Shown here: positions 815 to 26,215 of the stretch, piece by piece
Layout of the letters: every line of letters begins with the position of its first letter
How positions within the stretch are numbered: the stretch's first letter is position 1
From: an uncultured Gammaproteobacteria bacterium
Lineage (GTDB): Bacteria; Patescibacteriota; Patescibacteriia; UBA1558; GWA2-36-10
Length of the DNA: 64,000 nucleotides
Direction of reading: 5' to 3'
NCBI GenBank assembly: GCA_964638415.1
Contig: CAZWYP010000004.1
Coordinates: 8,498-72,497, forward strand
Program-made: the position numbers and the translations under genes
Notes under the pieces: generated by a model
What the model saw: the letters and a program-made list of their open reading frames with translations, nothing else
What the model was told of the DNA's origin: nothing
Databases searched by the model: none

Positions 815-1493
815 CTGTTTCCACTCTTAATTTTCTTATATCATCCAATGGTTCGCGTTGGAATAAATCGGGATTATAACTATTGTAGTACAATTCAATC
901 AAAGCCTGCGTATTTAGACGCTGCGAACTCAACCCTAGACTGGTTAGACCGGCGGCAATAAAACTGCAACGTTTATCCAGCTCCGCGCTCATTTCTGCAA
1001 AACGTTTGCGAGATAATTTAACTACTTTGGCCGTGGAAAAAACCGCACTCATCCGGCTGGTAAATTTTTTCTTACTATCACCAGCTTCGCTGTAAGGCAC
1101 TACTACAAAAAACTTCTTGCTCATAATTTTCTCCAAAGTCAGTAATTCACTGATAAAAGAACGATACTCACTAATTTGCATGCGCAATAATTCATTGGTG
1201 TGTTCTCTTTCCACTTTCTTCAACTTATTAAGATAATCATCAATATTCAAAGGACGAGATTGTACTACAATCTGCAAAGGGTAATTCAAAGTATTCAAAA
1301 ACCCGACATAAGAGTTAATCATCGCGGCCTGCTCATCTTCAGATTTTAAATCAAAATTAATGGAGGAAACCAATAACACTCCCCTCACTGAAGCGTCATT
1401 TAAAATAACCAAATCCTCCTTAATGGCGGCAATATCCAAATACTTTTGTGTCGAGGTCTGCAATTTATTCCCAGCTATTTTTTTATTTTTCAT
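807..1493 (-). CDS. Hypothetical T4SS-associated protein (pattern resembles the extreme N-terminal domain of Gram-positive VirB4-like ATPases)
   Basis: 228-aa ORF between the PrgI-like gene and virB4-like gene. Segment DIAAIKEDLVILNDASVRGVLLVSSINFDLKSEDEQAAMINSYVGFLNTLNYPLQIVVQS resembles the start of VirB4 family proteins. The 8-nt overlap with the next gene suggests translational coupling. The homology call is from memory only. Confidence 0.35.
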   Translation of the reverse strand: MKNKKIAGNKLQTSTQKYLDIAAIKEDLVILNDASVRGVLLVSSINFDLKSEDEQAAMINSYVGFLNTLNYPLQIVVQSRPLNIDDYLNKLKKVEREHTNELLRMQISEYRSFISELLTLEKIMSKKFFVVVPYSEAGDSKKKFTSRMSAVFSTAKVVKLSRKRFAEMSAELDKRCSFIAAGLTSLGLSSQRLNTQALIELYYNSYNPDLFQREPLDDIRKLRVETDV

Positions 1494-1956
1494 AATTCAC
1501 GCTGTTAAAAGGTGATTTATTGGCCCGATTGGCTTCCAATTCTCCCTTATATATTCCTCCCGTATCAACAATTAAAGACAGTTCCGACAACTTACTCGTT
1601 GGCAAAAAAGCCTTGGGTTTAACCAATTGATTATTATCCTCACTTTCCACCTGACGCTCCTCAAATTTAATTTCCTGTTTTAACCAAATTCTCAATTTGG
1701 GCTTTTTAGAAGTCTGAATGACATTAAGCAAGAAAACATGAAACGGCGCTCCGTTTATTTTGATAAAAGCGAATAAAATAGTCAGAAAAGCAAAAATAAT
1801 AAGCTGAACGATAAACAAAGCAAAGTCCGACAATTTGTAAGCAGCAAAAACAAATAAACCGCCGATGATCATAATAATAAACTGCCGGACGGTCACTGGT
1901 CCAATAATCTTATCTTCTGCATCAATAAATTGGGGAACAATAAAACGATCCTGCAT
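1483..1956 (-). CDS. PrgI/VirB3-like small two-TM membrane protein of type IV secretion systems
   Basis: 157 aa. N-terminal VPQFIDAEDKIIGPVTVRQFIIMIIGG followed by two hydrophobic helices, typical of the PrgI family (PF12666-like). Sits immediately upstream of and overlapping the virB4-like genes. Confidence 0.5.
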   Translation of the reverse strand: MQDRFIVPQFIDAEDKIIGPVTVRQFIIMIIGGLFVFAAYKLSDFALFIVQLIIFAFLTILFAFIKINGAPFHVFLLNVIQTSKKPKLRIWLKQEIKFEERQVESEDNNQLVKPKAFLPTSKLSELSLIVDTGGIYKGELEANRANKSPFNSVNYEK

Positions 1957-1957
1957 A

Positions 1958-3322
1958 TTAGAATCTCAATAATTTATTTAAATCGGAAATAGAAGCGAAT
2001 TCTTCAATTGTTAAAGTATTCTCTTTATTATTCAGCTTCTCCCTAATAATATTCTCCACGTCTTTGCCCTGGCTTAAGCTTTCTTCGCCCAAAGACAGAT
2101 ACAGCTGGTAAACCGGGCTACGGCGCCAACCTTCAATACCTTGGGCTTTCTTAGTGATTGAGTCTTTTTCCAAAACATTAATCTTCTGCAATAATTTATC
2201 TATTTGCTGACGGGAAGAACTGCCTAAACGACGGAACTTATCTAAATCTAAAGACTGCAATTCTTCAATCGGACCGGTTAAAGTTGCCTTGGGAGCGGCG
2301 ACGCTAGAAGAGTAAATAGGTTGGGAAAAAACTTCCTTTTCCTTAGTGACTTTCACATCACTTACTGGCTTTTTATCGCCAGCGCCAACGCGGAAAACTT
2401 TAGGCAAGGCTGCTTTAATTTCATCTTCTGGCTTTTTAACTGGAGCTGGAGAAACTTTAACCTCTGCTTTTGGCTTAGGTTTTAAAGTTTCCAACTTCTG
2501 AACAGTTTTCAAGATAGGCTTTAAATCAGCATCATTCTCATCAGCGTCCGCCAATTCATTACCAGCAGCTTTTGCAAGTTCATCTGTTGATAAAGCAGAT
2601 AATAATTTTTCTACCTCTGCTTGAGTTTTTTCCTGTGGCTTACTTGGCGGTAATTCCTTGTTTAAATCCGCTTCCAATTCTGCCACTTCATTAGGCAGAG
2701 CCTTCGCTTTACTGACCACTGGATGATTTGCCTGCTTAACAGCTAACTCTGCCATTTTAACCACTAATCCGCCGCCGACTTCAATCTTAGCTTTAATGCT
2801 TTTGACAATCCCTACGATATTATTAACCTGCTCTTCGGTTAAAATCTTGCCATTAGACTCTATCCTTTCCGACAACAGCTCTCTAATAATAATGGCATTG
2901 CGCCGATTACGGAAAAAATCAAATAAGATATCCGTAAACTTATTCTTAGTGTCTGCAGAAAATTTTAGTTTTTCCTGATCAATCAATTTATCTACTATCT
3001 TTTCAATGCTATATTTGCGGGAATTATCCTGGGGAATATCCTTAACTAAACTAGCCACCTCCTCTTCATCATCAGGGTGAAAACCGAACTTAGCCTTATC
3101 TTGGCTATTGCCCAATTTGGGCAAATCCAAAAAATGCTCATTGTCTGGAGCTAAAGCCGGCGCCATGATTTTTAAAGATAAATCAGTGTGTTGAGTCAAG
3201 GCTGTACTTTTTGTTGGTCCGCTTTTATAACGATGCAGCTGGCCGCTTTGCTCTTTAACCAAAATATTATCTGTCCAATTATCAGATAATGGGTGGGAAT
3301 TGGCTTGATTATTATTTGGCAT
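1958..3322 (-). CDS. Hypothetical protein (low-complexity, K/E/A-rich, no TM)
   Basis: 454-aa ORF abutting the PrgI-like gene (2-nt gap). No recognizable motif. Confidence 0.4.
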   Translation of the reverse strand: MPNNNQANSHPLSDNWTDNILVKEQSGQLHRYKSGPTKSTALTQHTDLSLKIMAPALAPDNEHFLDLPKLGNSQDKAKFGFHPDDEEEVASLVKDIPQDNSRKYSIEKIVDKLIDQEKLKFSADTKNKFTDILFDFFRNRRNAIIIRELLSERIESNGKILTEEQVNNIVGIVKSIKAKIEVGGGLVVKMAELAVKQANHPVVSKAKALPNEVAELEADLNKELPPSKPQEKTQAEVEKLLSALSTDELAKAAGNELADADENDADLKPILKTVQKLETLKPKPKAEVKVSPAPVKKPEDEIKAALPKVFRVGAGDKKPVSDVKVTKEKEVFSQPIYSSSVAAPKATLTGPIEELQSLDLDKFRRLGSSSRQQIDKLLQKINVLEKDSITKKAQGIEGWRRSPVYQLYLSLGEESLSQGKDVENIIREKLNNKENTLTIEEFASISDLNKLLRF

Positions 3323-6618: not shown

Positions 6619-7869
6619 TTAATTTACTGGCTGAACCCAGGCTAATTGATTATTGATATTGCTAATCTCCCGCCATTTTAAGGTATTATCCGTTAAATCC
6701 AGATAAACAACCTGGCCTTCTCCCCCTTGAATATTAGATAAGTAAAACCCTAATAAGGCTGCTTCCGCCTGCGGCAAACGCAATTTATCATTAAGAATAA
6801 GCTCAAAAAACAAACGGCGCCTAATTAATTTGTCAGTAATTTCTACTAAACTTAATTTTTCTCCAAAGCGCACACTAATAAAACGTCTCATAATTCCTTG
6901 AAATCTCTTATCTTCCTGCAGCATTAAGTCTAAGGCTTTCTTTTCAATTAACAACTTAAGGCAGGCCAACGTTTTATCCTGATCTTGAATACCGACTGCT
7001 TGCCATAAAACATCGCGCAATTTATGCAAACTGCCTCCGGCTTCAGATAAAATCAAATCCTCCCCTACTATTTTCTTCTGCCAAACAACCAAACGCTGAT
7101 TAATCTGCTCTAGTATTTCTTCTGTCTTTGGTTGTTCCGACTTTTCTTTGCCTACAACGGTTTTTTCTGGCAACTCTCTGACTTTAACAATAACATCGGA
7201 ATTATCTATTTCTATTGGAGAATCATCATCGTAAGAAATAAAAAAGTTGCGGATACTGCCCTTTTCCTCTTCTGTTAAATCTAAAATATTACGGTCACTG
7301 GATAAATACTTAGCGCGCTGCAATGAGCTATGATAGCCAGCTCCCATCTGTTTAAAATAATCGTTAAGCCAGTTATCTACCGTCGGACTTAATAAATTAC
7401 CTTCCCGGTCAATTATTTTTTTGGAGCTTAAACGCAGATCCTTAAAATCCGGATACTGCTTCAATAATTGTTTGACTGTTCCGGAAATATAATTTGGTAA
7501 AGTGGGGTTTTGCATAGTCCGCTTATGCAGATGCTTCAAATGCGGAACCTTGCCTCCTAAACGTAAAATTAAGCGGTCAACATCTTTTAAATAATCCTGC
7601 AGCGGCCAAAGGATTTTATAGGCAATTTCCAGACATATTTCCCGTAAGTCATAATATTGCGCCCGTTCCATGTTCTCCAATTCGTTAGGCAGATCCAGGC
7701 TAGAAATTTTTTGTAAAAACAACTTTTCTTCCAAGTCTAAAATAAAATCCAACTGATTTCTATTCAACGAAAAACGATCAGCCAGCTGCTGATTGTAATC
7801 CGAAAGCTCGGTACTAAATACCACCTCTTTCACTTCTGGAGGTAAATTTTGTAAACTCTCAATTGGCAT
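6619..7869 (-). CDS. Hypothetical protein (416 aa, soluble) immediately downstream of the VirB6-like gene
   Basis: ORF only. 11-nt gap to the upstream gene. No recognizable motif. Confidence 0.4.
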   Translation of the reverse strand: MPIESLQNLPPEVKEVVFSTELSDYNQQLADRFSLNRNQLDFILDLEEKLFLQKISSLDLPNELENMERAQYYDLREICLEIAYKILWPLQDYLKDVDRLILRLGGKVPHLKHLHKRTMQNPTLPNYISGTVKQLLKQYPDFKDLRLSSKKIIDREGNLLSPTVDNWLNDYFKQMGAGYHSSLQRAKYLSSDRNILDLTEEEKGSIRNFFISYDDDSPIEIDNSDVIVKVRELPEKTVVGKEKSEQPKTEEILEQINQRLVVWQKKIVGEDLILSEAGGSLHKLRDVLWQAVGIQDQDKTLACLKLLIEKKALDLMLQEDKRFQGIMRRFISVRFGEKLSLVEITDKLIRRRLFFELILNDKLRLPQAEAALLGFYLSNIQGGEGQVVYLDLTDNTLKWREISNINNQLAWVQPVN

Positions 7870-7880
7870 TTATTTTTGTT

Positions 7881-10646
7881 TTAACTGGACTGTCCTCTAC
7901 TCCTCTGACTATTCCTGTTTTGATTGGCAGTTGCATTTCTAAAAGCTTCATCAGTACCAGCGACTATTCGGCCGCCCTGCGCTTGCCCGCCAATTCCGGA
8001 AACCTTCAAGCTGTTCTGCATTGTTTCTGACAAATCACTAAAGACTGCTTCCAAATCGCTTTTATCAATCTTTAAAGCTTGGGTGCTGCTTAAAGTATTA
8101 ACGAATTGAGCGAATTCTCTCTTGGCATCATTATTGGCAAATAATCTGACCTGATTACCATTAGCATCGCTTCCATTAATTTTACCAAAGGCTTCTCCGG
8201 CAAATTGCAAATTATTCTTAGCCAGCTGATTACGACGATTCTTCTGCTCTAATTTAATTTTTTCTTCATCAATTGAAGCATCACCGCCATTAGCTTGAAT
8301 GCTTTTAACCCTGGCTTCTTCTTCAATTTTAACCATATTTATCTGATTCTTAAAGCTGGCCGCCACATCTTCTGCTTTAACATACTGACGAGTAGCAACA
8401 TTAGTAGCTAGGGCTTCAATATTATTACCAGCTTTCACCTGGGCTTCAATTACCATCTTAGTGCGCTCTTCATTACCACCTCTTTCAGCAACAGCATTAA
8501 CTTTAGACAAAGGCAAGTAAGGAGCAATGGCCTGAATAACCCGCTGATCTTCCGGGGAATCTTTCATTTCCAATAAATCATCATCTTTAATATTGCGAGC
8601 CAGCTGCGGAGCAAACTGTTTTAGTGTCGCTTCCCGGCGATTAGCAATAATTTCTTTCTCTTCAACGCTCTTACCATTGTTCATCTCGTGATCCGGATTT
8701 AAATCCTCTCTCTTATTTACTTCTTCCAAAACACTGCTCATGGCTTTAGAATTAACTGAGGATAGTTTGTAAGCTTGATGATCTTGATTTACTTCATAAC
8801 TACCATCATTATTCCTAACCAACAAAGATCGGTCTGCTTTTTCTTTGCCGGTATTTTCTTCAGCTGTACCAAATAAGTTCTTATTAGCATGGGCAATTAG
8901 CGCCTGATTCCACCTATCTTGAGTAGTGCGAGTTTTCGCAGACAAAAACTTCTGCTGTTCACCAGCTTTGAAATTTTTAAACTGCTCAACAACCAAGCGG
9001 CCGCCTTCATTTAAATTGCCCTCGTGATCAAATAATGTTTCCGGATCAATATTATTAAATGCCGCCAAGCCTTGTTCTTTAGCCGCTGCTTCCGCTGAAT
9101 TCTTGCCATCACTGCTAATAGAGTGGGCCATGGCATTAGTGCTACGCACTTTTTTGATCATTTCCCCATCACCTACGCGCTGTGCCTCTTTAATAACATC
9201 ATTAACCATGTCTAGGTTATCTTGATGTCCTTGAATAGTTGTATTTTTATCTTTATCAAAAACATTATTATTATCCACCCTGGTCTTGTATTCATTATAA
9301 CGATAACCCGGTCTGCCTTCATAAAATTTCTGACGATCCTCTGGATTGCTAATATTCTTCTCTGCCCACTTTGTGGTAAATTTACCGGCTTCGTGCCTTT
9401 TAGCTCTTTCAGTTTCTGCCGCCTTAAACGCTATGCCTGCAGAAACCAAAGGCTTAATGCCTGTTTTTTGCAAACTAGCACCCAAGCCAGCTCCTGCTTT
9501 GCCGGCTAAAGCCACTGCTCCGCCATAGCCGCTGGAACCGGCCACCATGGTTTTACCTACCCGGCGGTACCCAGCGCTGACCTTTGACTTCATGCCAGAG
9601 GCTAATTTGGAGCCAACCGCGCCGGCCGCTGCGCCAAAAGTCTGAGTAACTTTCAAAGAACCCACCAGCATGGCAATGCCGACAATATATTTAAGAATAT
9701 TTTCCCAACCACCAGAACCGGTAATACCTATTTGGCCAATAGCATCTGCTTCTTCTTTTGTCTGGTCGCCAATTACCAGGTTTCCTTGAACAAAATCCTC
9801 ATTAACCTTACCAGATCCGACAATCATAAAAGTAAGCCACAGGAAGAAAGCCAGCATTGGCCCGACTAGTAATTCCTTGGTCAGCATATCTACCCAGCGC
9901 TGGAAATAACTCTCTCCTCTAGGCAAGGTATTAGCCAAGAAAGCAATCGGTGAAATAACAATAATAATCCAGAGCATTACTATTCTAGCTACCAAAATTA
10001 CAATAAAAGCCATTAGGACAATACTGGCTATTACCACCATAATGCCGCCTAATAAATAACCTAAAACAATCTGGCCAACTACGTCTCCGCCGCTTTCATT
10101 AGGACCGCTGCCGGCTATTTTAACTAATTCATCTAAGCCTAGTGCCGCCGTAACATTGCCATAAACCACATCTTTCCAAGCACTAACCATGGTTAACATT
10201 ATGACCTGGAACAAATCAATAACCACTCCGACTAAGGTGCGGCTAAAATTAACCAGAATAGCCATGATAATCAACCGCCTCAGCATCTGCCGATAACCAT
10301 AATTCTGGATTTTCAGAATAGTGCCGAATGCCATTACCAACAAGACTACGATAAACAGCATATTCACTAAATCACGAGCTGCGATCCAGCCGGCCTGCAC
10401 TCCCGCCTGATTAGTAAAATTATTATACTGGGCAACAATCGGTAAAAGCAGCATTTCTACTTTTAACAGTAAGATGAAAGGCCAGAAAAACAAATAAAAC
10501 AAAGTGCGACCGATTGCCTGGCCAATCCAAGAGCTAATTGTTCCCCCATCATCAGCGGCTTGAATAATATTGGGGACAAAGAAAGCAACTAAGGCAATGG
10601 CAATAAAGATTAACCAGAACTTATTTTGAATTTTTATAGTTCTCAT
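7881..10646 (-). CDS. VirB6/TrbL/TcpH-like polytopic membrane protein with a long hydrophilic C-terminal extension
   Basis: 921 aa. N-terminal signal-like segment, at least 6 hydrophobic helices in the first ~300 aa, then a ~600-aa charged/coiled tail ending in a Gly/Gln/Ser/Arg-rich tip. This architecture is typical of T4SS VirB6-family channel proteins. Sits 4 bp downstream of the giant secreted protein gene. Confidence 0.5.
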   Translation of the reverse strand: MRTIKIQNKFWLIFIAIALVAFFVPNIIQAADDGGTISSWIGQAIGRTLFYLFFWPFILLLKVEMLLLPIVAQYNNFTNQAGVQAGWIAARDLVNMLFIVVLLVMAFGTILKIQNYGYRQMLRRLIIMAILVNFSRTLVGVVIDLFQVIMLTMVSAWKDVVYGNVTAALGLDELVKIAGSGPNESGGDVVGQIVLGYLLGGIMVVIASIVLMAFIVILVARIVMLWIIIVISPIAFLANTLPRGESYFQRWVDMLTKELLVGPMLAFFLWLTFMIVGSGKVNEDFVQGNLVIGDQTKEEADAIGQIGITGSGGWENILKYIVGIAMLVGSLKVTQTFGAAAGAVGSKLASGMKSKVSAGYRRVGKTMVAGSSGYGGAVALAGKAGAGLGASLQKTGIKPLVSAGIAFKAAETERAKRHEAGKFTTKWAEKNISNPEDRQKFYEGRPGYRYNEYKTRVDNNNVFDKDKNTTIQGHQDNLDMVNDVIKEAQRVGDGEMIKKVRSTNAMAHSISSDGKNSAEAAAKEQGLAAFNNIDPETLFDHEGNLNEGGRLVVEQFKNFKAGEQQKFLSAKTRTTQDRWNQALIAHANKNLFGTAEENTGKEKADRSLLVRNNDGSYEVNQDHQAYKLSSVNSKAMSSVLEEVNKREDLNPDHEMNNGKSVEEKEIIANRREATLKQFAPQLARNIKDDDLLEMKDSPEDQRVIQAIAPYLPLSKVNAVAERGGNEERTKMVIEAQVKAGNNIEALATNVATRQYVKAEDVAASFKNQINMVKIEEEARVKSIQANGGDASIDEEKIKLEQKNRRNQLAKNNLQFAGEAFGKINGSDANGNQVRLFANNDAKREFAQFVNTLSSTQALKIDKSDLEAVFSDLSETMQNSLKVSGIGGQAQGGRIVAGTDEAFRNATANQNRNSQRSRGQSS

Positions 10647-10650
10647 ATTT

Positions 10651-13600
10651 TTATTCTTCCGGCTCGTAAATAACTATCCAGCCAGCATATGGCCAATTAG
10701 CTGACTGATTCCAATTATCTGTCACTGTTAATACCGGCTTATAGCACTGGGCATTGAAAATATTAGGCGCGGTAGGATCTGAAGCGTGTATGGCTGAACA
10801 AATATTACTTTCATTATCCTCATCCCAAACATAGAAATGGAAAAATGATTTATACCCTTCATGGCAGGCGCCGGTAGTGCCGGCAAAACCCATCAGCCTA
10901 GTACCGCTTAAACCTGGAGCATTCTGATTGGGGTCGCAGTCAAATAAATTATTCTTATACTTGCTATTCGGCAAACCGCCGCTAATGTCTCCATCTCCCC
11001 AATTAACCCGCAAATCGGTGATCGGCATATGATCGGGATGAGCGTGGTAATAGAATTTAATGGCCGCAAATAAATTACCTTCATCGCCGACAATTTCAGA
11101 GTCGTCATTCTTATTATTTACCGTAATACCCTGTGCTGGAGCAATTAAACCATTATTGTCGCAATAACGGCTGCCACAGACCTTGAATACTCTAGGTAAA
11201 TAATCTGGGCCAGCAAAAGAATTAGTGTAGCCAGAAGAAAGATCGGTAATTGTATTATTAGTATACTGTGACCCATTCCAATTTAAATTATATAATCGGG
11301 CAAACAATTGTCTTAATTGGGCATCTGCCTGGCCAGGATTAGAATTATCAGCAAAGAAAATAGAGGATGCTCGAGGTTCAAAATATCTTTGATTTAAAGG
11401 TGCTTCTACCACAATTATTTCTTCATTGGCCAATCCTTGATCACCGCCAAAGAATGGACCAACTGTAGTTGATTCAACCCGACTAAAACCAATATTAGTA
11501 TCATTAGGATAACAACAACCTTCACGAAGATAATATGCTCGCCATGTTCCCATGTGGTCATCATCTGCTTGTGGCGTAGTCGCATTATTAGCTGCTCGCC
11601 ACCAAATATCTGTACGTAACCAAGACTTGCTATGATCGCCTTCAGCATCTATAACATTAATTGTGCTACATTGTTTATAACAACCATCATCACCACCTGG
11701 ACAGCTAAAAGTCCCATTTACTCCAGAAGTGTATATCCCCCCGGGAGCAACGCAGTTAAGGTCTCTGGTGGGATTACCCATACAACCGGAGACATTCCTA
11801 TAAATAAAATCGCCATCGCTAATACCGTATGCTTCTAAGCGCATTTGCGGAGTAATTAAATCATAATACTGCTGGCTACAACCAGCGCCGCCAACTACCA
11901 CCGGATTTCTATGCAATAAATAATCCCAATAACTTACATAATACTCTGTGGAAGTGTTATGGTAAGATTCACAATAATTAGTATTAAAACCATATCCATC
12001 ATTATTAATAATGGCACCAGCATGTAAAACACAGTGTGCAAACTTGCAGTCATTATCCTCACCACAACCTGAATTATCTTCAGGATCCATGCTAGCTATA
12101 TTGTAATTTGTAGCAACCTGATTGAATCTACCGCCTAAATTAGTCAAGCAGGAAGCAACTGATGCGCCACAATTAGTAATCTGGCAAATCTGTCCAGGAT
12201 TATATTCTCTACTAATATAATAATTATAAGTCCGGGGGTTACAAACTACAGTACAGTCATCATAACGACGGCCACCACAAATATCACCGCTACGGCAATA
12301 CCATGATGCCAAGTGCATATTTCTTGCCCCGGAAGAACAGCGAGAACCGGTGCCTAAAACAATATCTTGAGCACAATCAGCATTACCACACAATCCCTCT
12401 CTACAATCACCGCCAGTTAAATTTATACCCCTTGGACTATCCGCAAAACCTTCCCTGGCTTGACCATGTAAGACCGTTGGTATGCTTCCTCCATTACTAT
12501 TACCGTCTGGAGATACTCCTGAATCAAAGAAGTAAACCTTCAATTGTTGACTACTGTGAGAAAATAAACTTTGAATATCCTCAAGATAATTTGCAGTTAA
12601 ATTGGCGTTAGAGTAGTTAAAATCAGCAGCCGAATATCTCTGATTACTCGGTGGATTACCATAGATTATTGGATTACCCACATCCGCAGGAGCGGCCTCA
12701 AAAACATACTCACCTGTTAATTTCCAATGTCGCCCAGTGCCATCTGATGGACTATCGTCTACCAAGTTACTATAATATCCTGCGCCATGAGCAAAAATAT
12801 TTGAACCAGCAGGAATTTGGACTAAAACATTACAAAAACCATCTCGCCAAGTAGCACAATATAATCTATCCTCAGTTAATAAATATGGTTCGGTTAATTT
12901 ACAAATATTAACATCCTGCCCAGCTGGATTATAGAAACCAGCTTCCACAAAATGATTGAAGCGGCTTTGCGAACCGATTATCTGCTCGCTAGGATACCAC
13001 TGATTGCAATAATAGCTCTGTTTAAAATCACTCTGAATTAAAGTGGAAGTATCCGGTTGTAGGCAAATTCCGCTCCAGTTAATAAAATCTTCTACTTTAG
13101 TGATTGATTCACAGCGGCCATTTACACCGCAACTGTCATTATCTATAGCATTATCATTATCTCCAATATCTTCAGGGTTACAGGAGTCTCCTTCTTTTTT
13201 ATCCAACTGCAGTTGCTCATCTACCACGCTACAAACACCAGCCGCATAATTGCCGGCGTTAAAATCTTTATATCCGTAATAACGCACTAAGCTGCCTAAG
13301 CCATAAGTCACTTTCTTATAGCGAGGTTCACAACCATTTTCTCCATCCTGACAAACATTCGCCTGATTATACTTGCTCTTTAAGACAAAAACATCTCCTT
13401 CTCCACCTTTAATACTCTTGGGGAAAGGCGCTTGCTGAGCAGCATAACCGCGAGTAGCTAAGCCATATTCGCTCTGATTAATCGTGGGACTGCCTGTCGG
13501 ATTAAGCCAACAAACCGAATCCTTGCAAATACCGGCATAGCCAGATACGCTGCAAGTTAAATTATCCCGTCCATCGCAAATACCTTCCGGCTGAATATCT

Positions 13601-16600
13601 GAAGCATCATAAACTAAGCGTGGATCATTATATTCAGTAGTAGTCGCAAAGTCATAAACCTGCAAGCTACGCAGAGGGAATAAATCTGGAACTGAATATC
13701 CAATATATTCCTTGTCTGACCATTGAATATGTTCATTGATACCACTCACTCTATCTTGGTATTCCGTCACTGTTAGAGGACTATCTGGAGTATAAGTCGC
13801 CCACTTGCGGCATTGGGTAATATTACTGGTTGAAGAATATTCCACGCAGCTGTCTAAAGCGTCACAAATCATCTCATATTGAGAAGTATCTTCGTTAAAA
13901 ACTGCAGTTAATGACTTACAAGCCAGCCATTCCGCACACTGGCGATCCTTGTTAACCTTCACAATGCGGTTAGCATCAAGAATTGCTCCGCCGCCGCCAG
14001 TATCCGGATTCACCGGCTTATTGAGCGCTACATTATTATTGTAAGTTACTTCCGTATCATAAAGCTTGATTACTTCCGTGTGATCAGCATTCCAATTATT
14101 GGCATCATAAACCAGAATACAGCCGGTTTGCTGATCAACCTGCCCATTGCAGCTTCCGGCTTCTATTTTTTCATTATCATAATAATAATATGACTGGCAG
14201 TCCGGCACATCAGGATCACTGTTGCTATTGTCAAAATCACAATTCAAAGGATCAGCTGGATCTACAAAAGTAGTGCAGAGATTCTTATTTTCCGGACACA
14301 TGGCCGACCAGCCAAACGGCATTTCCGGCTCCCGACCAGAAGCGCATAATTCCGGCGTGCCGCTGGTTAAGCTATCTGTTTCAAACCAGCCATCAATTAA
14401 ATCTCCGTCAATATTAACATCTTCCTGGTAACTGCAAGTCTTATTGCCCGGATCGCGGAAATAATAAATCCCCTTGCTAGAACTAAATGCTTCGCAATAC
14501 AAATCTTCAGAACGGCATAAAGTATTTTCATACTGATCAGGATTATTAAGCTTATATACTGTATCAAAACCAGTAACTACATTCTCTACCCGATCAATTT
14601 CTGGCAAGCCTAAAGCCATACATCCCTTATAGGCAGAAGCGCAATATTTATCTACATCTGGCACTAAATAAGTGACGCTATCTGCTGCTACTGCCAATTG
14701 AGAATAATCTCCCGTATTAAAAGTCTGAGCAAAAGGATTGGTAGAATTATGAGTTGCAATTACCGCCTGACAGCCGATCGCTTCCTGACGGCATAAGCTG
14801 GTAAATGATTTTAGATTATAGTTTTCGCCATTAGTATCCCGGTAAGCTTGGCAACCTAAGTAAGCACCGGCAAACGGATTATCGCAAGAAGCCGGAGTCT
14901 GCCAAGAATTACGGACATAAGACAAACTGTCTACTAATTCTTTAAGGATAAAATTATCTAAATAAATTGACCCCGTGCCATTGGTACCAAATCGCAAAGT
15001 AACATTGCCGGTTAAATTAGTTAGCGGATTAGATGTTATTTCATAACGATTCCACTGGCCGCCGGAGATGGTATTAATATTGCCAACTAAAGCGGAGTGG
15101 GTGCCGTCAGTAAAGGAAACCACTATGGAATCAATAGTGCCTTCATTCTTCATCCAGAAAGACAATTGGTAACTCTTATTATTCTGGATATTAGCAACCG
15201 GGCGGCTAATGCCGGTAAATCCGCTGGGCGATGAAACCCGCATAGAGTGGCCGCCATTGGCTAATGACTCATTGGACAAATCAATAGCAGTACCACCTTC
15301 GGCATACCAAGGATCATAACTGCCGTTTTCAAAATTATCCGTAAATAAACGCCGCTGGTTATTGGCTGCTGCTCCGGTATAAGCCCGGCAACCGGCAAAT
15401 TGAGCTTGGCAAGTCTGACTTAAATCGGGAATTGCCTGATACTCCTGCCCAGTAAAGGTGCGGCGGTAAGGATGACAATTGTTATCGGCAAAAATTACCC
15501 TATCACTCAAACGGTAATGATCTTCACCGTTAATGTCAAAATATTGGCGACAATTAATATCAAATTCCGGATCATCAAAAGGATCTTCAGTTTCTGGACC
15601 GCAAGCAGCCGTAGCATGAGCGTTTTCTCCCAATGGATCATAAGGCTCATCCACGCAAGTATTACCGCCGGGGTCTACATTAGTACAAGGCGCATCATTA
15701 AGATTGCTTTCTAGGAAATTAACTGTCTGCAACTGGTAACCGGCCACATCCGATCCCTGCCAAGTATAATAAGTGGTGCCGTAGCTTGCCGGCACGCATT
15801 GGCGCAAATAAGTGTAGTATTCCTTGCCTTCCCCGCCTTGCTCTACCTCGTCCAAATTAGTAAACTCCTCGCAACCAATTTCCTGACTAGGGCAGCTCAA
15901 AGCAGTGGTAGGAATAAAATTATAATAATCCGGAAGATTATCTCCCTCAAAGACATCAAAAATATTGGGCTGTTCAGCAAAAGTAGCATAACCAACGCAT
16001 TCTGCCGGACAAATGTCATTGGCGGTAATAATACCAGGCACTAGTGGATCGCCATTAAGAGGCACATAACCACGACAACCTACCTCCTCCTCCACACACA
16101 TAAAGCGATCATTGTCCATTAGAATCCTGCCGCCATCACCGTAAGCGCTGAAGTTTGACGGACCAATATCGTCAACTCGGCGCTCATAACTGAAAGTGCT
16201 AACTTCTTCCACTTTAATATTATCCAAAGTAAATATATTAGCGCCAGAAATCTTGACTTCAATCCGCTGACCTTCAGCATCTTCGCCAAAAGTGCCATGA
16301 ACGACCTGCCGGCTGCCGGCTGGATCTAATTCTCTAAGATAAGCTATACCCCTACTCAAAGGATCACGCTGGTTAATACTGGCATCAATTGTTCCAGTGC
16401 CAGTAGCATCAAAACTCAAGATAAATGAGCGGTTTTTAATATCATAACCAGTATCAATAATTGCCGTAATATCTTCATCAACCTGCACAGTATATTCCAT
16501 ACCGCCACTCCGGCGAGCCGAGCTTACTACTTCCAAATTACCCGTAGTAGTAAAACCCATTATCTGATCGGAATCTCCGTCGTCAGGATCACCTTTAAAC

Positions 16601-18654
16601 ATAGTAATATCGCCATTGGGCAAAAGATTAATTCCTCGATCAGCGGCCATGACAATAAATTCGCTGCAACCATCTTTGTCTGGTGGACAATTATTAGCTT
16701 GGCTGTTTAAAAATAAATCATTCTCGTTAAAAGGATGGGTGGCGGGATCTAAAGTCATATCTGCTTCCAGTAGCCAATTTCCTTCACTGTCTCTCTCCTG
16801 AGCATAGCGCTGACAACCCACCTGATCTGCATCGCAATAATCCAGAGTCCCTTCAATATAAGAATTATTGCCTAAACGATCGTTAGCGAAAGTCAAACAG
16901 CCGGAATAGATATCACCATCTTCGCATAAATCACCGTTGAAGCGCCAAATATTTTCCGAACGAGTGCAGTAGCCGTATTGTCCATCCAAACAATTACCAT
17001 TTCCGTCTTCCCGCAGGCAAGTCTGTACATCAGCGCAATACTGCTGACGGGCATTTGATTCAGAAGATTCCAATACCGGCCCGTAAACTAAGGCATTACA
17101 GCGTGCGGCCGGAGCTTTTAACACCCAATTAGGATCTACTAAGTGATAGTAAGGATTATGGTTATCATAGGCAGGGTCGATTCCAAAAGGACAGCCGACG
17201 TCCTCAAAACATTCAATAACTTTCTCAAGAGAAACAGAGGTTCCTACTGGCGCCCGCAAAGCTGCCATTTCCCAACCAACCGGAACTACGCCAGCTTTCC
17301 TCAATTTAACCATATTGTGATAGCAAAATCCTTCTAAATAACAGGTATCGCTATTATTACGCGGATCACCAGGACCAATAAAAGGCAAGTCTCCATTTAA
17401 AGATCCGTCTAGAATCGCTTGAGCCACTGTTTTGCGCTGAGGTAATAGCTGTAAAAATTCTACGCTGATCGTACAATTATCCGGACTGCGAAAATCTTCC
17501 TGGTTAGGACAAATGGCGAAGTCCTCCATTAAGGTATAATTTTCTACTTGCCTAATGTCGATAGTCTTGAGATCGCGGAAAATATCCACTCCTCTGGGAG
17601 CGCGTAAATCAGCGCCGCCGCGTAATAAGGTTAATAAATCATCACGGAAACTCTGGTCATCGTTACCCAAAAGCTGAGTTAAAGACCACATGCCGCGGCG
17701 AATATAATGTTCCATTAACTTACCAGACAGAGTTCTAGTAAACATACTAAATCCCTGACGCAATACTCCGCCGATATTAACCACGGTCTTGCCGTCTTTT
17801 TCACTAATTAGTTTCTGTACATCTGCTTGAGCTGCTTGCTCTAGAGGGGTGATGGCTATTTTATGAACCACCTGACAATGAGTGCGCACTTCTTCAGTAA
17901 TAACCGTTTTCTGATCCTTAAATCCCTGACATTCTGCTTGCGTAATCTTAGCTACCTCTTCCGCTCTTTGCTTACGAGCCTCCTGTTCCGCATACAAGCG
18001 GCTCAAGGTTCCTAAATCACTATTAGATTCGTCAAACTGATTGAAGAAATCAGCAATGCCTTCAACTCCGCTCTGGCGGGGATCAAGTTGGAATTTAATA
18101 AAATCAGTCCAACCGCCGCCAGACAATGAATCGCTAAACTGCCGCCAGTTCTGCTGAACTTCCCGCCAATTACACTTCGGGGCCGGCGGAGCAGCGCTGT
18201 CAATTAATTTTAAAGTTAAAGTAAGCTTTACATCCAGTGAGGGATCACAGAGATTGATTCCTAAATCCTTAAAATGTTTAGAAGTTAATTCTCCGATAAA
18301 ATCGCCGACGGCCGCTTCACCTGCTTTATTTAATACCGTACCGATATCTTCGGTGCGAAACAAGGGTTTGCCGCCAATTGCTCCCTGAGCAATATAATTC
18401 GCCATTTCATAAGACAAGTTGCTAATAAATGTATTAACCGCGTTATTAATTAATTCCTTGGCGATAAAAGTATAAGATCGATCAACGATATCAGTGACCC
18501 TCTCCCAAACCCACTTAGCAACATTAACCGCTACCACATCAGGAGCAAAAGCTTGGGATTTTACAGGAGTAAAAACAGCCGGTGAAAGCACCAATAAAAA
18601 CATAAAAACTGACAAAATCAGTGTTTTTATTCCTTTATTTTTTATTTTTTGCAT
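10651..18654 (-). CDS. Giant (2667 aa) secreted cysteine-rich protein with a CBM4/9/22-like carbohydrate-binding module. Putative extracellular adhesin or host-interaction protein.
   Basis: Single uninterrupted ORF. N-terminal signal peptide (KTLILSVFMFLLVLSPAVFTPVKSQA). Many Cys in a recurring [VIL]GC[QRES]x[YF] context. Segment FENGSYDPWYAEGGTAIDLSNESLANGGHSMRVS...IYLDNFILKEL has the hallmarks of a CBM_4_9 beta-sandwich. Confidence 0.75.
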   Translation of the reverse strand: MQKIKNKGIKTLILSVFMFLLVLSPAVFTPVKSQAFAPDVVAVNVAKWVWERVTDIVDRSYTFIAKELINNAVNTFISNLSYEMANYIAQGAIGGKPLFRTEDIGTVLNKAGEAAVGDFIGELTSKHFKDLGINLCDPSLDVKLTLTLKLIDSAAPPAPKCNWREVQQNWRQFSDSLSGGGWTDFIKFQLDPRQSGVEGIADFFNQFDESNSDLGTLSRLYAEQEARKQRAEEVAKITQAECQGFKDQKTVITEEVRTHCQVVHKIAITPLEQAAQADVQKLISEKDGKTVVNIGGVLRQGFSMFTRTLSGKLMEHYIRRGMWSLTQLLGNDDQSFRDDLLTLLRGGADLRAPRGVDIFRDLKTIDIRQVENYTLMEDFAICPNQEDFRSPDNCTISVEFLQLLPQRKTVAQAILDGSLNGDLPFIGPGDPRNNSDTCYLEGFCYHNMVKLRKAGVVPVGWEMAALRAPVGTSVSLEKVIECFEDVGCPFGIDPAYDNHNPYYHLVDPNWVLKAPAARCNALVYGPVLESSESNARQQYCADVQTCLREDGNGNCLDGQYGYCTRSENIWRFNGDLCEDGDIYSGCLTFANDRLGNNSYIEGTLDYCDADQVGCQRYAQERDSEGNWLLEADMTLDPATHPFNENDLFLNSQANNCPPDKDGCSEFIVMAADRGINLLPNGDITMFKGDPDDGDSDQIMGFTTTGNLEVVSSARRSGGMEYTVQVDEDITAIIDTGYDIKNRSFILSFDATGTGTIDASINQRDPLSRGIAYLRELDPAGSRQVVHGTFGEDAEGQRIEVKISGANIFTLDNIKVEEVSTFSYERRVDDIGPSNFSAYGDGGRILMDNDRFMCVEEEVGCRGYVPLNGDPLVPGIITANDICPAECVGYATFAEQPNIFDVFEGDNLPDYYNFIPTTALSCPSQEIGCEEFTNLDEVEQGGEGKEYYTYLRQCVPASYGTTYYTWQGSDVAGYQLQTVNFLESNLNDAPCTNVDPGGNTCVDEPYDPLGENAHATAACGPETEDPFDDPEFDINCRQYFDINGEDHYRLSDRVIFADNNCHPYRRTFTGQEYQAIPDLSQTCQAQFAGCRAYTGAAANNQRRLFTDNFENGSYDPWYAEGGTAIDLSNESLANGGHSMRVSSPSGFTGISRPVANIQNNKSYQLSFWMKNEGTIDSIVVSFTDGTHSALVGNINTISGGQWNRYEITSNPLTNLTGNVTLRFGTNGTGSIYLDNFILKELVDSLSYVRNSWQTPASCDNPFAGAYLGCQAYRDTNGENYNLKSFTSLCRQEAIGCQAVIATHNSTNPFAQTFNTGDYSQLAVAADSVTYLVPDVDKYCASAYKGCMALGLPEIDRVENVVTGFDTVYKLNNPDQYENTLCRSEDLYCEAFSSSKGIYYFRDPGNKTCSYQEDVNIDGDLIDGWFETDSLTSGTPELCASGREPEMPFGWSAMCPENKNLCTTFVDPADPLNCDFDNSNSDPDVPDCQSYYYYDNEKIEAGSCNGQVDQQTGCILVYDANNWNADHTEVIKLYDTEVTYNNNVALNKPVNPDTGGGGAILDANRIVKVNKDRQCAEWLACKSLTAVFNEDTSQYEMICDALDSCVEYSSTSNITQCRKWATYTPDSPLTVTEYQDRVSGINEHIQWSDKEYIGYSVPDLFPLRSLQVYDFATTTEYNDPRLVYDASDIQPEGICDGRDNLTCSVSGYAGICKDSVCWLNPTGSPTINQSEYGLATRGYAAQQAPFPKSIKGGEGDVFVLKSKYNQANVCQDGENGCEPRYKKVTYGLGSLVRYYGYKDFNAGNYAAGVCSVVDEQLQLDKKEGDSCNPEDIGDNDNAIDNDSCGVNGRCESITKVEDFINWSGICLQPDTSTLIQSDFKQSYYCNQWYPSEQIIGSQSRFNHFVEAGFYNPAGQDVNICKLTEPYLLTEDRLYCATWRDGFCNVLVQIPAGSNIFAHGAGYYSNLVDDSPSDGTGRHWKLTGEYVFEAAPADVGNPIIYGNPPSNQRYSAADFNYSNANLTANYLEDIQSLFSHSSQQLKVYFFDSGVSPDGNSNGGSIPTVLHGQAREGFADSPRGINLTGGDCREGLCGNADCAQDIVLGTGSRCSSGARNMHLASWYCRSGDICGGRRYDDCTVVCNPRTYNYYISREYNPGQICQITNCGASVASCLTNLGGRFNQVATNYNIASMDPEDNSGCGEDNDCKFAHCVLHAGAIINNDGYGFNTNYCESYHNTSTEYYVSYWDYLLHRNPVVVGGAGCSQQYYDLITPQMRLEAYGISDGDFIYRNVSGCMGNPTRDLNCVAPGGIYTSGVNGTFSCPGGDDGCYKQCSTINVIDAEGDHSKSWLRTDIWWRAANNATTPQADDDHMGTWRAYYLREGCCYPNDTNIGFSRVESTTVGPFFGGDQGLANEEIIVVEAPLNQRYFEPRASSIFFADNSNPGQADAQLRQLFARLYNLNWNGSQYTNNTITDLSSGYTNSFAGPDYLPRVFKVCGSRYCDNNGLIAPAQGITVNNKNDDSEIVGDEGNLFAAIKFYYHAHPDHMPITDLRVNWGDGDISGGLPNSKYKNNLFDCDPNQNAPGLSGTRLMGFAGTTGACHEGYKSFFHFYVWDEDNESNICSAIHASDPTAPNIFNAQCYKPVLTVTDNWNQSANWPYAGWIVIYEPEE

Positions 18655-18662
18655 GGCTTTTA

Positions 18663-19457
18663 TTAACTAGCTAAACGATTACGAATGTCTATTAACTCTT
18701 GTTCACTTAAACGATTGATGGCTTCCTTATCTGCCTCTGGCTGATTAAGTAAGAATGTCCGAACTTCTTCCGGGCTTAATTCGGCAAAATCAACTTCTTC
18801 TGAACTTTGATTTTCTTCAGCCCAAGCGGAAACAATAATAATTAACTCTTCATCGGTTAGAGCATCAATTTCCGCTTGCGGCAAACCATTCTCCACCAAA
18901 AAACTTCTTAGTTGATTTAACGTGGCCTGCTGTAAAGTTAAATTGGGATCCAGCGCTACATCCTCTACGACTTCTGCCAATTTAGTATTTGGTGTAATTA
19001 AACGCAAAATATTACAATCCTCTCCCGTTGGACATAAGGGATCGTTGCCGGAATTCGCTTCCTGGTAATCGCTGAAACCATCACTATCAGTATCCGGCAA
19101 AAACATGCTGGTATGGAATTGGTAAACTTCCTGATAATCATTAAGTCCATCTTGATCAGTATCTTTTGACTTCAAATCAGCAATAATTTCCTCCTGGCTT
19201 TGGCCGGAATTGGCAAATTGAGCGGCAATTTCCGGCGGCAACTCATTATCCAAAGGCGCTTGTAATACTTGATACTTAAAATACCAGCCACTTAAAAAAA
19301 TCACACCGGCGCCAAGCAATAAAAATAGCCAAGCGGTTTTCCTTTTCCAAATCAAAGAGCCTTGGCTTGAAGAATAATCACCGGTTAAATAACCGGCAGT
19401 CAAATTCGATTTTTCCGCAAATGAATTTCTTTTATTTTGTGACAAATCTTTGGCCAT
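18663..19457 (-). CDS. Single-pass membrane protein with thrombospondin-type-3 / dockerin-like Ca-binding repeats
   Basis: TM helice WLFLLLGAGVIFLSGWYF. Repeats DTDQDGLNDYQE and DTDSDGFSDYQE. 8 bp upstream of the giant gene. Confidence 0.5.
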   Translation of the reverse strand: MAKDLSQNKRNSFAEKSNLTAGYLTGDYSSSQGSLIWKRKTAWLFLLLGAGVIFLSGWYFKYQVLQAPLDNELPPEIAAQFANSGQSQEEIIADLKSKDTDQDGLNDYQEVYQFHTSMFLPDTDSDGFSDYQEANSGNDPLCPTGEDCNILRLITPNTKLAEVVEDVALDPNLTLQQATLNQLRSFLVENGLPQAEIDALTDEELIIIVSAWAEENQSSEEVDFAELSPEEVRTFLLNQPEADKEAINRLSEQELIDIRNRLAS

Positions 19458-19555
19458 TAAGCCTAAATTAACTAGGCTAATTATAACATAAAATCAAAAC
19501 ATTTCAAAGATTTATTCTTTAACAATGCCGCTGTGAGTAAAAATTTATTAGCGGA

Positions 19556-26184: not shown

Positions 26185-26214
26185 AAAAACACCCTTCTAA
26201 TAAGGGTGTTTTTA
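26182..26214. terminator. Bidirectional intrinsic terminator between convergent genes
   Basis: AAAAAAACACCCTT-CTAATA-AGGGTGTTTTTATTT: stem flanked by an A-run and a T-run. Confidence 0.6.
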
Positions 26215-26215
26215 T

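What the first reader, a model, noticed from the sequence alone, without database searches (positions are those of the whole stretch)
10651..18654. 2667-aa cysteine-rich secreted giant protein with a CBM4/9-like module and a recurrent xGC[QRES]x[YF] motif
This is a single intact 8-kb ORF with a clear signal peptide, dozens of cysteines spaced in a repeated [VIL]GC[QRES]x[YF] context, and an internal ~140-aa segment with the hallmarks of a family 4/9/22 carbohydrate-binding beta-sandwich. The motifs include GCQRY, GCSEF, GCRGY, GCEEF, GCRAY, GCQAY, GCQAV and GCMAL. The module marker is FENGSYDPWYAEGG...IYLDNFILKEL. Giant extracellular disulfide-rich proteins are hallmark accessory genes of ultra-small symbiotic bacteria and remain largely uncharacterized. 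The glycan-binding module hints at host-surface polysaccharide recognition.
Basis: partly seen in the sequence, partly recalled or inferred. Interest (0 to 1): 0.7.

Follow-up and report, generated by a model that had tools for sequence, protein, structure and literature searches.

The report
Giant cysteine-rich protein in T4SS operon
This intact 2,667-residue secreted, disulfide-rich protein with two sugar-binding-type modules belongs to a large uncharacterised family of ultra-small (Patescibacteria) bacteria, and its gene sits in the operon of their type IV secretion-like machine, so it is probably that machine's outward-facing, host-touching part.

Summary

The gene is not an accessory oddity. 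It belongs to a collinear family with 1,358 representatives at 50% clustering, found in at least 586 stretches of GTDB species genomes, all titled Patescibacteria/Parcubacteria. 81 of the 100 Cys are at least 90% conserved.

The gene order is conserved: KsgA | small TSP3-like membrane protein | giant | VirB6/TrbL-like | 416-aa protein ... PrgI/VirB3 | TrsD | VirB4. In several distant lineages this cluster is contiguous.

Best reading (confidence about 0.5, inferred from synteny and anatomy): it is the extracellular adhesin or scaffold of the Patescibacteria T4SS-like apparatus. It would work like TraN or PrgB without being related to them. No curated family or accessible paper describes it.

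The parts
19480..19507 (-). Best sigma-70-like promoter match of the region (TTGAAA-16-TATAAT, TG-extended, 11/12), in the 98-bp KsgA/TSP3-like gap
   Evidence: a consensus match only
18663..19457 (-). 264-aa single-pass membrane protein with a bacterial TSP3 (Ca-binding) repeat in its ectodomain. It lies directly upstream of the giant gene, with an 8-bp gap.
   Evidence: PF18884 E 1.3e-8. One TM at aa 42-60. Present directly upstream of the giant gene in 70 of 72 loci.
10651..18654 (-). Giant 2,667-aa secreted cysteine-rich protein (whole ORF including stop)
18547..18654 (-). aa 1-36: Sec-type signal peptide or signal anchor
   Evidence: family consensus P.PA.A
17530..18546 (-). aa 37-375: conserved helical N-terminal region with 4 invariant Cys. 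No known relative.
   Evidence: AF2 predicts helices but at low pLDDT. PDB profile search found nothing. Conservation.
16636..17529 (-). aa 376-673: conserved Cys-rich core I. It includes the hairpins C607/C614 and C656/C663.
   Evidence: AF2 is confident only for aa ~375-514
16123..16635 (-). aa 674-844: first, sequence-variable CBM-like beta-sandwich
   Evidence: AF2 pLDDT 66-86. Foldseek aligns both sandwiches to the tandem CBM22-1/CBM22-2 structure 4xup. hhalign places aa 778-860 against 1199-1295 at prob 91%. Low conservation.
15358..16122 (-). aa 845-1099: conserved Cys-rich core II, beta-rich. It includes the hairpins 853/860, 921/928 and 1082/1089.
   Evidence: pLDDT 86-94 from aa ~894
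14935..15357 (-). aa 1100-1240: CBM_4_9 / CBM22-like carbohydrate-binding-type beta-sandwich
12775..14934 (-). aa 1241-1960: conserved Cys-rich core III, with further C-x5-6-C hairpins
   Evidence: AF2 is mostly low confidence
11695..12774 (-). aa 1961-2320: hypervariable, indel-rich, Cys-rich region
   Evidence: column conservation 0.20-0.40 and many insertions; pLDDT below 50
10654..11226 (-). aa 2477-2667: conserved C-terminal Ig/PKD-like beta domain with the motif YHAHPDHMP...WGDG
   Evidence: pLDDT 72-91. Only weak PKD hits (4xed E 6e-3). Motif invariant in 36 homologues.
7881..10646 (-). 921-aa VirB6/TrbL-like polytopic membrane protein with a ~600-aa hydrophilic C-terminal extension. 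A 4-bp gap separates it from the giant gene.
   Evidence: PF04610 E 5e-4 here. 9 of 38 orthologues match it, best 5e-8, and one other family (TrbL_4) matches a single member. At least 6 hydrophobic segments. Adjacent to the giant gene in 38 of 58 informative loci.
6619..7869 (-). 416-aa soluble protein of unknown function, last gene of the four-gene block (11-bp gap)
   Evidence: No Pfam or NCBIfam hit. Gene order conserved.
1958..3322 (-). 454-aa soluble protein preceding PrgI, conserved in order
1483..1956 (-). PrgI / VirB3-like protein (2 TM)
   Evidence: PF12666 E 4.9e-10
807..1493 (-). TrsD/TraC-like protein
   Evidence: NF041427 E 6e-9; PF26593 in orthologues
2..814 (-). N-terminal 271 aa of the VirB4-like ATPase, cut by the window edge
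   Evidence: NF045971 E 4e-30; 57% identity to the 631-aa VirB4 of L006

Best explanation
The giant protein is the extracellular, host-facing component of the Patescibacteria type IV secretion-like apparatus.

Shown: it has a Sec-type signal and no other membrane segment. It has about 50 potential disulfides built from almost invariant cysteines. It has two CBM-type beta-sandwiches and a hypervariable segment, set into a conserved Cys-rich scaffold. Its gene is packed at 4-11 bp spacing between a small TSP3-like membrane protein and a VirB6-like channel subunit. PrgI/VirB3, TrsD and VirB4 lie nearby, or directly contiguous in other lineages.

Inferred: after Sec export and oxidative folding it forms a rigid surface structure. 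This structure is held at the membrane through the TSP3-like partner and/or the VirB6-like protein. It binds glycans on a host (or its own) envelope through the CBM-type modules and the variable region. That binding would stabilise the cell-cell contact across which the VirB3/B4/B6(/B8) translocon works. The role is that of TraN or PrgB in conjugation, carried out by an unrelated protein.
For: Gene order. KsgA-TSP3-like-giant-VirB6-like-p416...p454-PrgI-TrsD-VirB4 is seen in the window and in close homologues. The cluster is contiguous in homologues of only 26-30% identity: L006, L057, L059, L060, L063, L077. There a ~190-aa ORF after VirB4 weakly matches VirB8.

Counts. The VirB6-like gene is directly downstream in 38 of 58 informative loci and within 8.5 kb in 13 more. 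The TSP3-like gene is directly upstream in 70 of 72. Intergenic gaps are 4-11 bp, and the best promoter-like site lies upstream of the TSP3-like gene.

Extracellular character. Signal peptide and 3.75% Cys against 0.61% in neighbours, with 81 of 100 Cys conserved.

Binding modules. The CBM is supported by Pfam and by fold, and there is a second CBM-like sandwich. Variable segments (aa 681-840, 1961-2320) are embedded in conserved scaffold.

Co-variation. Distances of giant and VirB6-like proteins correlate after controlling for KsgA (partial r 0.36). For giant and TSP3-like the partial r is 0.60. This is suggestive only.

Literature. The Patescibacteria T4SS is described as VirB4/TrsD/PrgI/VirB6 near KsgA, with 'no adhesins such as PrgB detected' (PMC12102498). 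It is essential in a Saccharibacterium, and its function is unknown (PMC10633639, PMC11665869).
Against: The link is purely genomic. The housekeeping gene KsgA is just as conserved in this position, so conserved order near the origin could be partly historical.

In Uhrbacteria-like loci the VirB6-like gene is 5-9 kb away, or not within 5-10 kb in 7 loci. Housekeeping or unrelated genes lie in between.

The experimentally studied Saccharibacteria T4SS cluster has no such giant gene.

No domain of the giant protein resembles any known T4SS component.

The AF2 models are low-confidence for more than half of the protein, so no overall shape is known.

The VirB6 assignment rests on sub-threshold to modest TrbL matches.
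Confidence: 0.5

Rival explanations
1. It is a stand-alone surface adhesin or envelope (S-layer-like) structural protein. With its TSP3-like partner it coats or decorates the cell. It merely shares an ancient, origin-proximal gene neighbourhood with T4SS genes and has no functional coupling to them.
For: The TSP3-like/giant pair is the most constant unit (70 of 72 loci). It co-varies more strongly (partial r 0.60) than giant with VirB6-like (0.36). KsgA, LeuRS, Sua5 and LysM-M23 are conserved in order too. In 7 loci no VirB6-like gene lies within 5-10 kb. The Saccharibacteria T4SS lacks it.
Against: The giant gene is 4 bp from the VirB6-like gene here, and adjacent in 38 of 58 informative loci across deep divergence. 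In several lineages it is the second gene of one uninterrupted TSP3-giant-VirB6-...-VirB3-TrsD-VirB4 string. No SLH, sortase or other wall-anchor motif was seen.
Confidence: 0.27
2. It is a giant secreted carbohydrate-active or cell-wall-attacking enzyme. The CBMs would target an unrecognised catalytic domain to host polysaccharide, as proposed for giant genes of predatory bacteria.
For: CBM22/CBM4-type modules normally accompany glycoside hydrolases. Large conserved regions have no assigned fold. An invariant HxHxDH-like motif occurs at aa 2537-2542.
Against: No catalytic family is detected by Pfam or NCBIfam, nor by the full-length PDB profile search. The His motif lies in a small Ig/PKD-like domain and is not conserved in the 25-30% identity members. 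The conserved regions are dominated by invariant Cys, Gly and aromatic residues, as in structural scaffolds.
Confidence: 0.08
3. It is a contact-dependent toxin or effector delivered to the host cell by, or together with, the T4SS.
For: It is encoded in the T4SS neighbourhood. It is very large and has a hypervariable segment.
Against: It carries a Sec signal rather than a T4SS substrate signal. The C-terminus is conserved rather than polymorphic. No toxin or immunity-type domains or adjacent immunity gene were seen. About 50 disulfides make translocation through a T4SS channel implausible (inference).
Confidence: 0.04

Closest known systems
TraN of F-like conjugative plasmids (mating-pair stabilisation adhesin)
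   Same: It is a T4SS-linked, Sec-exported surface protein. Its conserved cysteines (22) all form intramolecular disulfides. It has a conserved core and a variable beta-sandwich 'tip' that sets recipient specificity (PMC9246713). The giant protein likewise combines an invariant-Cys scaffold with variable beta-sandwich and hypervariable inserts.
   Different: No sequence relationship: no TraN Pfam hit at E<=1. The giant protein is about 4.4 times larger. Its organism is thought to have a single membrane, so there is no outer-membrane anchoring. Its modules are CBM-type, whereas TraN has protein-binding tips.
PrgB / aggregation substance and other adhesins of Gram-positive (MPF-FATA) conjugative T4SS
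   Same: They are large surface adhesins encoded with a VirB4/VirB6(PrgH)/VirB3(PrgI)-type monoderm T4SS, which lacks a pilus (PMC12102498).
   Different: PrgB homologues were searched for and not found in Patescibacteria (PMC12102498). The giant protein shows no PrgB-related Pfam domain and has no LPXTG-type anchor.
CBM22 / CBM4_9 / CBM16 carbohydrate-binding modules
   Different: Here the modules are embedded in a non-enzymatic Cys-rich giant protein. Ligand binding is untested.
Patescibacteria T4SS as described by Quinonero-Coronel et al. 2025 and Wang et al. 2023
   Same: The same component set (VirB4, TrsD, PrgI, VirB6-like) and the same KsgA/origin-proximal context.
   Different: Neither paper's text mentions this giant protein, and a search of the first paper's supplements for its Pfam domains (CBM_4_9, TSP3) found nothing. 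The Saccharibacteria cluster carries VirB2-like pilin arrays and no giant gene.
Giant surface proteins of other ultra-small or predatory prokaryotes (SPEARE of Nanohaloarchaeota; giant genes of Omnitrophota)
   Same: They are very large secreted proteins proposed to mediate host contact. This rests on my own knowledge; only a title-level hit was seen.
   Different: Those are multi-enzyme or repeat-rich and lineage-specific. This family is collinear, not repeat-built and Cys-scaffolded. Its position next to T4SS genes is conserved.

Membership tests
CBM_4_9 (PF02018) / CBM22-like module | Match to the family HMM above the curated gathering score | tested here: met
   30.9 bits against 25.9, aa 1104-1207
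CBM_4_9 (PF02018) / CBM22-like module | Beta-jelly-roll fold superposable on solved CBM4/9/22 structures | tested here: met
CBM_4_9 (PF02018) / CBM22-like module | Binds a carbohydrate ligand | not testable with these tools
   Needs glycan arrays or ITC on recombinant aa 1100-1240 and 674-844
Patescibacteria (MPF-FATA-like) T4SS gene cluster | VirB4 ATPase, with PrgI/VirB3 and TrsD in the same locus | tested here: met
   Window 2-814, 807-1493, 1483-1956
Patescibacteria (MPF-FATA-like) T4SS gene cluster | The neighbour of the giant gene is a VirB6/TrbL-family polytopic membrane protein | tested here: inconclusive
   PF04610 is sub-threshold here (18.6-20.3 bits against 25.9). However, 9 of 38 orthologues match it, best E 5e-8, and one other family (TrbL_4) matches a single member. 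At least 6 TM segments. No PDB sequence hit.
Patescibacteria (MPF-FATA-like) T4SS gene cluster | The giant gene is a conserved member of the cluster (conserved adjacency across distant lineages) | tested here: met
   Adjacent to the VirB6-like gene in 38 of 58 informative loci, near it in 13, absent within the flank in 7. Contiguous with VirB3-TrsD-VirB4 in at least 6 loci.
Patescibacteria (MPF-FATA-like) T4SS gene cluster | Physical or functional dependence between the giant protein and the T4SS | not testable with these tools
   Needs complex prediction, pull-downs, cryo-ET or genetics
TraN (PF06986) / PrgB adhesin families | Sequence homology to the family | tested here: not met
   Only CBM_4_9 and CBM_6 were reported at E<=1. 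NCBIfam gave only a weak CBM-like hit.
Tandem-repeat surface protein | Internal domain-length repeats detectable by self-alignment | tested here: not met
   Self-BLAST found none. hhalign found only the sandwich+hairpin duplication (aa 778-860 against 1199-1295, 91%) and 16-30-column hairpin matches.
PKD domain (C-terminal domain) | PKD HMM match or a confident fold match | tested here: inconclusive
   No Pfam PKD hit. Foldseek PKD hits have E 6e-3 to 0.09. A WGDG motif is present.
Polymorphic toxin / T4SS effector | Variable C-terminal toxin domain with an adjacent immunity gene | tested here: not met
   The C-terminus is conserved. No toxin domains. The downstream gene is VirB6-like.

The most novel reading that the evidence does not exclude
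In ABY1/Paceibacteria-type Patescibacteria the giant disulfide-knotted protein, together with its TSP3-like partner, is the actual extracellular conduit or docking tower of the T4SS. It would be a new kind of T4SS surface apparatus. It would take the place of the VirB2-like pilus arrays seen in Saccharibacteria, bridge the symbiont envelope to the host wall, and determine host range through its CBM-like and hypervariable inserts.
Probability: 0.15. Interest if true: 0.85.

Novelty: new variant of a known kind. Interest (0 to 1): 0.62.

Why it matters
The T4SS-like system is one of the few machines shared across Patescibacteria. It is essential in the one genetically tractable species, and reviews call its role 'completely unknown'. 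The published survey found no adhesin for it.

A large family of giant extracellular CBM-bearing proteins encoded in the same operon-like block supplies a concrete candidate for the host-contact element. The family has about 1,400 representatives at 50% clustering. It has defined conserved regions (scaffold) and variable regions (likely specificity).

This makes several things directly testable: host recognition, host range and the direction of transport. The tools would be glycan arrays, complex prediction, cryo-ET and metatranscriptomics. It also flags about 2,000 residues of conserved disulfide-rich sequence with no known fold.

Tried and rejected
- **Repeats.** Self-BLAST and windowed hhalign for a repeat period found no domain-length repeat.
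- **Profile search for more homologues.** A full-family alignment added no new proteins, because the word prefilter limits it. An N-terminal-domain profile returned only 5 fragments.
- **PDB sequence searches.** The full-length profile found only the CBM. The N-terminal profile found nothing credible. The VirB6-like protein found nothing, alone or as a profile.
- **First AF2 submission.** The work-around was to align the window segment to full-length database proteins.
- **AF2 limits.** The models left aa 45-375, 516-665 and most of 1468-2476 at low confidence. Fold searches of model 2 gave only weak Ig/PKD hits.
- **Mobile elements.** No matches in plasmid or phage collections.
- **Names.** No source names exist for the four operon proteins.
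- **Pilins.** Scans of the larger window ORFs found no VirB2-like pilin, but the scan is not exhaustive.
- **Metallo-beta-lactamase reading of HAHPDH.** Rejected: no Lactamase_B hit was reported, the motif lies in a small beta domain, and the His residues are not conserved in distant members.
Full report
**1. The observation**

Window 10651-18654 (-) is a single uninterrupted ORF of 2,667 aa with an ATG start. The identical protein is encoded on a separately assembled public contig.

The N-terminus is MQKIKNKGIK, then a hydrophobic stretch (aa 11-29), then ...KSQAFA. There is no other hydrophobic segment. The family consensus at this point is P.PA.A. This is the anatomy of a Sec signal peptide. 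No dedicated predictor was available, so cleavage versus signal anchor remains open.

The protein has 100 Cys (3.75%), against 0.61% for 42 other ORFs of the window. The patterns are far above shuffled expectation:
- GC[QRES].[YF]: 6 observed against 0.16.
- C.{4}[VILA]GC..[YFVL]: 5 against 0.01.
- C-x6-C: 12 against 3.6.

The motif is a short C-x5-6-C-x-x-aromatic hairpin, seen about 12 times. It is not a repeated domain. Self-BLAST finds nothing off the diagonal. Windowed profile-profile comparison finds only 16-30-column hairpin matches, plus one longer duplication.

**2. Anatomy of the protein**

Alignment of 36 full-length homologues and a conservation map divide the protein as follows.

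| Residues | Feature | Evidence |
|---|---|---|
| 1-36 | Signal peptide or anchor | |
| 37-375 | Conserved helical region, 4 invariant Cys, no detectable relative | |
| 376-673 | Conserved Cys-rich core I | |
| 674-844 | Sequence-variable beta-sandwich | |
| 845-1099 | Conserved, confidently modelled beta-rich Cys core II | |
| 1100-1240 | CBM | |
| 1241-1960 | Conserved Cys core III | |
| 1961-2320 | Hypervariable, indel-rich, Cys-rich segment | |
| 2321-2667 | Conserved C-terminal part ending in an Ig/PKD-like domain | |

The variable sandwich at aa 674-844 is a second CBM-like module. Three results support this. AF2 gives pLDDT 66-86. Foldseek aligns both sandwiches onto the tandem CBM22-1/CBM22-2 structure. 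hhalign places aa 778-860 against 1199-1295 at 91% probability.

The C-terminal domain (aa ~2477-2667, pLDDT 72-91) gives only weak PKD hits. It carries the motif YHAHPDHMP...WGDG.

74 Cys are invariant and 81 are at least 90% conserved.

More than half of the chain was modelled at low confidence, so the overall shape is unknown. Pfam and NCBIfam recognise nothing besides the CBM-type region, and a full-length profile search of PDB sequences likewise found only the CBM.

**3. The family**

The word-indexed search found 44 other clusters, 24-49% identical and collinear over the full length. All are 'hypothetical' proteins of Patescibacteria or Nomurabacteria.

An exhaustive HMMER search with aa 1-1100 found 1,358 representatives at 50% clustering (1,079 at E<=1e-30). 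Among the 150 best listed, most are 2,400-3,500 aa.

Their titles name Nomura-, Komeili-, Uhr-, Falkow- and Kerfeldbacteria and the Parcubacteria/Patescibacteria groups.

There are no matches in plasmid or phage collections. This is therefore a widespread family that was not found on plasmids or phages, not an accessory oddity.

**4. Genomic context (the main new point)**

On the minus strand the window reads as follows.
- LeuRS, Sua5, MFS, KsgA.
- A 98-bp gap holding the best promoter-like site of the region.
- A 264-aa single-pass TSP3-repeat membrane protein.
- An 8-bp gap, then the giant gene.
- A 4-bp gap, then a 921-aa VirB6/TrbL-like polytopic membrane protein.
- An 11-bp gap, then a 416-aa soluble protein.
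- An oppositely oriented methyltransferase, then rpsF-ssb-(rpsR)-efp.
- A 454-aa protein, PrgI/VirB3-like, TrsD-like, and a VirB4-like gene that is cut by the window edge.

The VirB6 assignment is modest but consistent. 9 of 38 orthologues hit PF04610 (best E 5e-8). One other family (TrbL_4) matches a single member. There are at least 6 TM segments.

The same order recurs in close relatives. In relatives of only 26-30% identity the housekeeping insert is missing. The string is then contiguous: KsgA, TSP3-like, giant, VirB6-like, 450-690-aa protein, PrgI, TrsD, VirB4 and a ~190-aa ORF. That last ORF weakly matches VirB8.

Counts over 82 distinct loci:
- The TSP3-like gene is directly upstream of the giant gene in 70 of 72 loci with enough flank.
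- The VirB6-like gene is directly downstream (under 300 bp) in 38 loci.
- It lies 0.6-8.5 kb downstream in 13 loci.
- It is not found within 5-10 kb in 7 loci, which are Uhrbacteria-like.

In the loci examined where the two genes are far apart, the intervening genes include SerRS, CysRS, IS200, an M23 peptidase and radical-SAM/YcaO genes.

Pairwise distances of giant and VirB6-like proteins stay correlated after controlling for KsgA (partial r 0.36, permutation p 0.001). For giant and TSP3-like the partial r is 0.60. I treat this as suggestive only, because phylogeny is not fully removed.

**5. What is known**

Quinonero-Coronel et al. 2025 (PMC12102498) describe the Patescibacteria T4SS as a monoderm, MPF-FATA-like system made of VirB4, TrsD, PrgI/VirB3, VirB6 and VirB2-like pilins. 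It mostly lacks a relaxase and is often near KsgA and the origin. They state that no adhesins such as PrgB were detected. A search of their supplements for this protein's Pfam domains (CBM_4_9, TSP3) found nothing.

Wang et al. 2023 (PMC10633639) showed that the T4SS cluster is essential in a Saccharibacterium. That cluster has pilin arrays and proteins of about 1,000 aa, but no giant Cys-rich gene.

A 2024 perspective (PMC11665869) calls the T4SS role 'completely unknown'.

I found no paper in the searchable library that describes this giant family.

**6. Most likely mechanism**

Shown: predicted export, a disulfide-type cysteine pattern, CBM folds, the conserved/variable mosaic, and operon-like linkage to T4SS membrane components.

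Inferred: the protein is the extracellular adhesin or scaffold of the T4SS-like machine.
- It would be tethered through the TSP3-like partner and/or the VirB6-like protein.
- It would bind envelope glycans through the CBM-type modules and the variable inserts.
- It would thereby stabilise the symbiont-host junction at which the translocon acts.

The nearest functional analogue is TraN of F-like plasmids. TraN has 22 conserved, disulfide-bonded Cys and a variable beta-sandwich tip that sets recipient specificity (PMC9246713). There is no homology to TraN or PrgB. I put confidence at about 0.5.

Rival readings:
- **Stand-alone adhesin or envelope protein (about 0.27).** It would only share an ancient neighbourhood with the T4SS genes. 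This is favoured by the tighter giant/TSP3-like pairing, by the Uhrbacteria exceptions and by KsgA's own conserved position.
- **Giant CBM-targeted enzyme (about 0.08).** No catalytic domain was found. The HxHxDH-like motif lies in a small beta domain and is not conserved in distant members.
- **Toxin or effector (about 0.04).** A Sec signal, a conserved C-terminus and the absence of an immunity gene argue against it.

**7. Verdict**

Patescibacteria origin, extracellular location, disulfide richness and the CBM all hold. The gene is not accessory, and its T4SS context was missed.

On novelty, this is a new variant of a known kind: a T4SS-linked surface adhesin or scaffold with an undescribed architecture and family. 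Interest is 0.62. It offers a concrete, testable candidate for the host-contact element of a system whose function is an open question. The functional link is so far only genomic.

Noticed in passing
window 52347-55671 (-): Three tandem paralogues of 363-382 aa carry a Laminin_G_3/ConA-like lectin domain (E 1e-20 to 1e-22). A type IV pilin N-methylation motif was detected in one of them. This looks like a lectin-tipped pilin array. A further pilin-like ORF lies at 33240-33752 (+).
   Followed up: no
window 29580-29655 (-): ARAGORN calls a tRNA-Ile with anticodon TAT (UAU) next to tRNA-Val(CAC). This anticodon is unusual for bacteria.
   Followed up: no
window 10654-11226 (-), aa 2536-2544: The motif Y-H-A-H-P-D-H-M-P (HxHxDH-like) lies just before WGDG in the C-terminal Ig/PKD-like domain. 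It is invariant in 36 close homologues and could be a metal site. The histidines are not conserved in the 25-30% identity members.
   Followed up: partly
L077 26568-27149; L006 26680-27279: A ~190-200-aa ORF directly after VirB4 in contiguous clusters weakly matches VirB8 (PF04335, E 2.5e-4, 21.4 bits against cut-off 23.2). It would complete a minimal VirB3/B4/B6/B8 set.
   Followed up: partly
L030, L035, L053, L074, L080, L038 (downstream of the giant gene): In Uhrbacteria-like loci, 5-9 kb lie between the giant and VirB6-like genes. The inserts examined include SerRS, IS200, a 668-689-aa M23-peptidase protein directly upstream of the VirB6-like gene, and radical-SAM/SPASM plus YcaO plus CysRS. 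The M23 protein could be the VirB1-like wall hydrolase.
   Followed up: partly
window 24973-27109: A LysM x2 + Peptidase_M23 gene (+ strand) and a second TSP3-repeat protein (297 aa, - strand) lie upstream of LeuRS. The same pair, with larger TSP3 proteins, occurs in L001 and L002.
   Followed up: no
window 34336-35541 (-) and 48541-49323 (+): An IS110-family transposase and a tyrosine recombinase/integrase.
   Followed up: no
L004 4354-5100 (-): A DsbA/thioredoxin-like gene lies about 5 kb upstream of the giant gene in one distant relative. No Dsb-like gene was seen among the window ORFs scanned, so the oxidative-folding partner of a 100-Cys protein remains unidentified.
   Followed up: no
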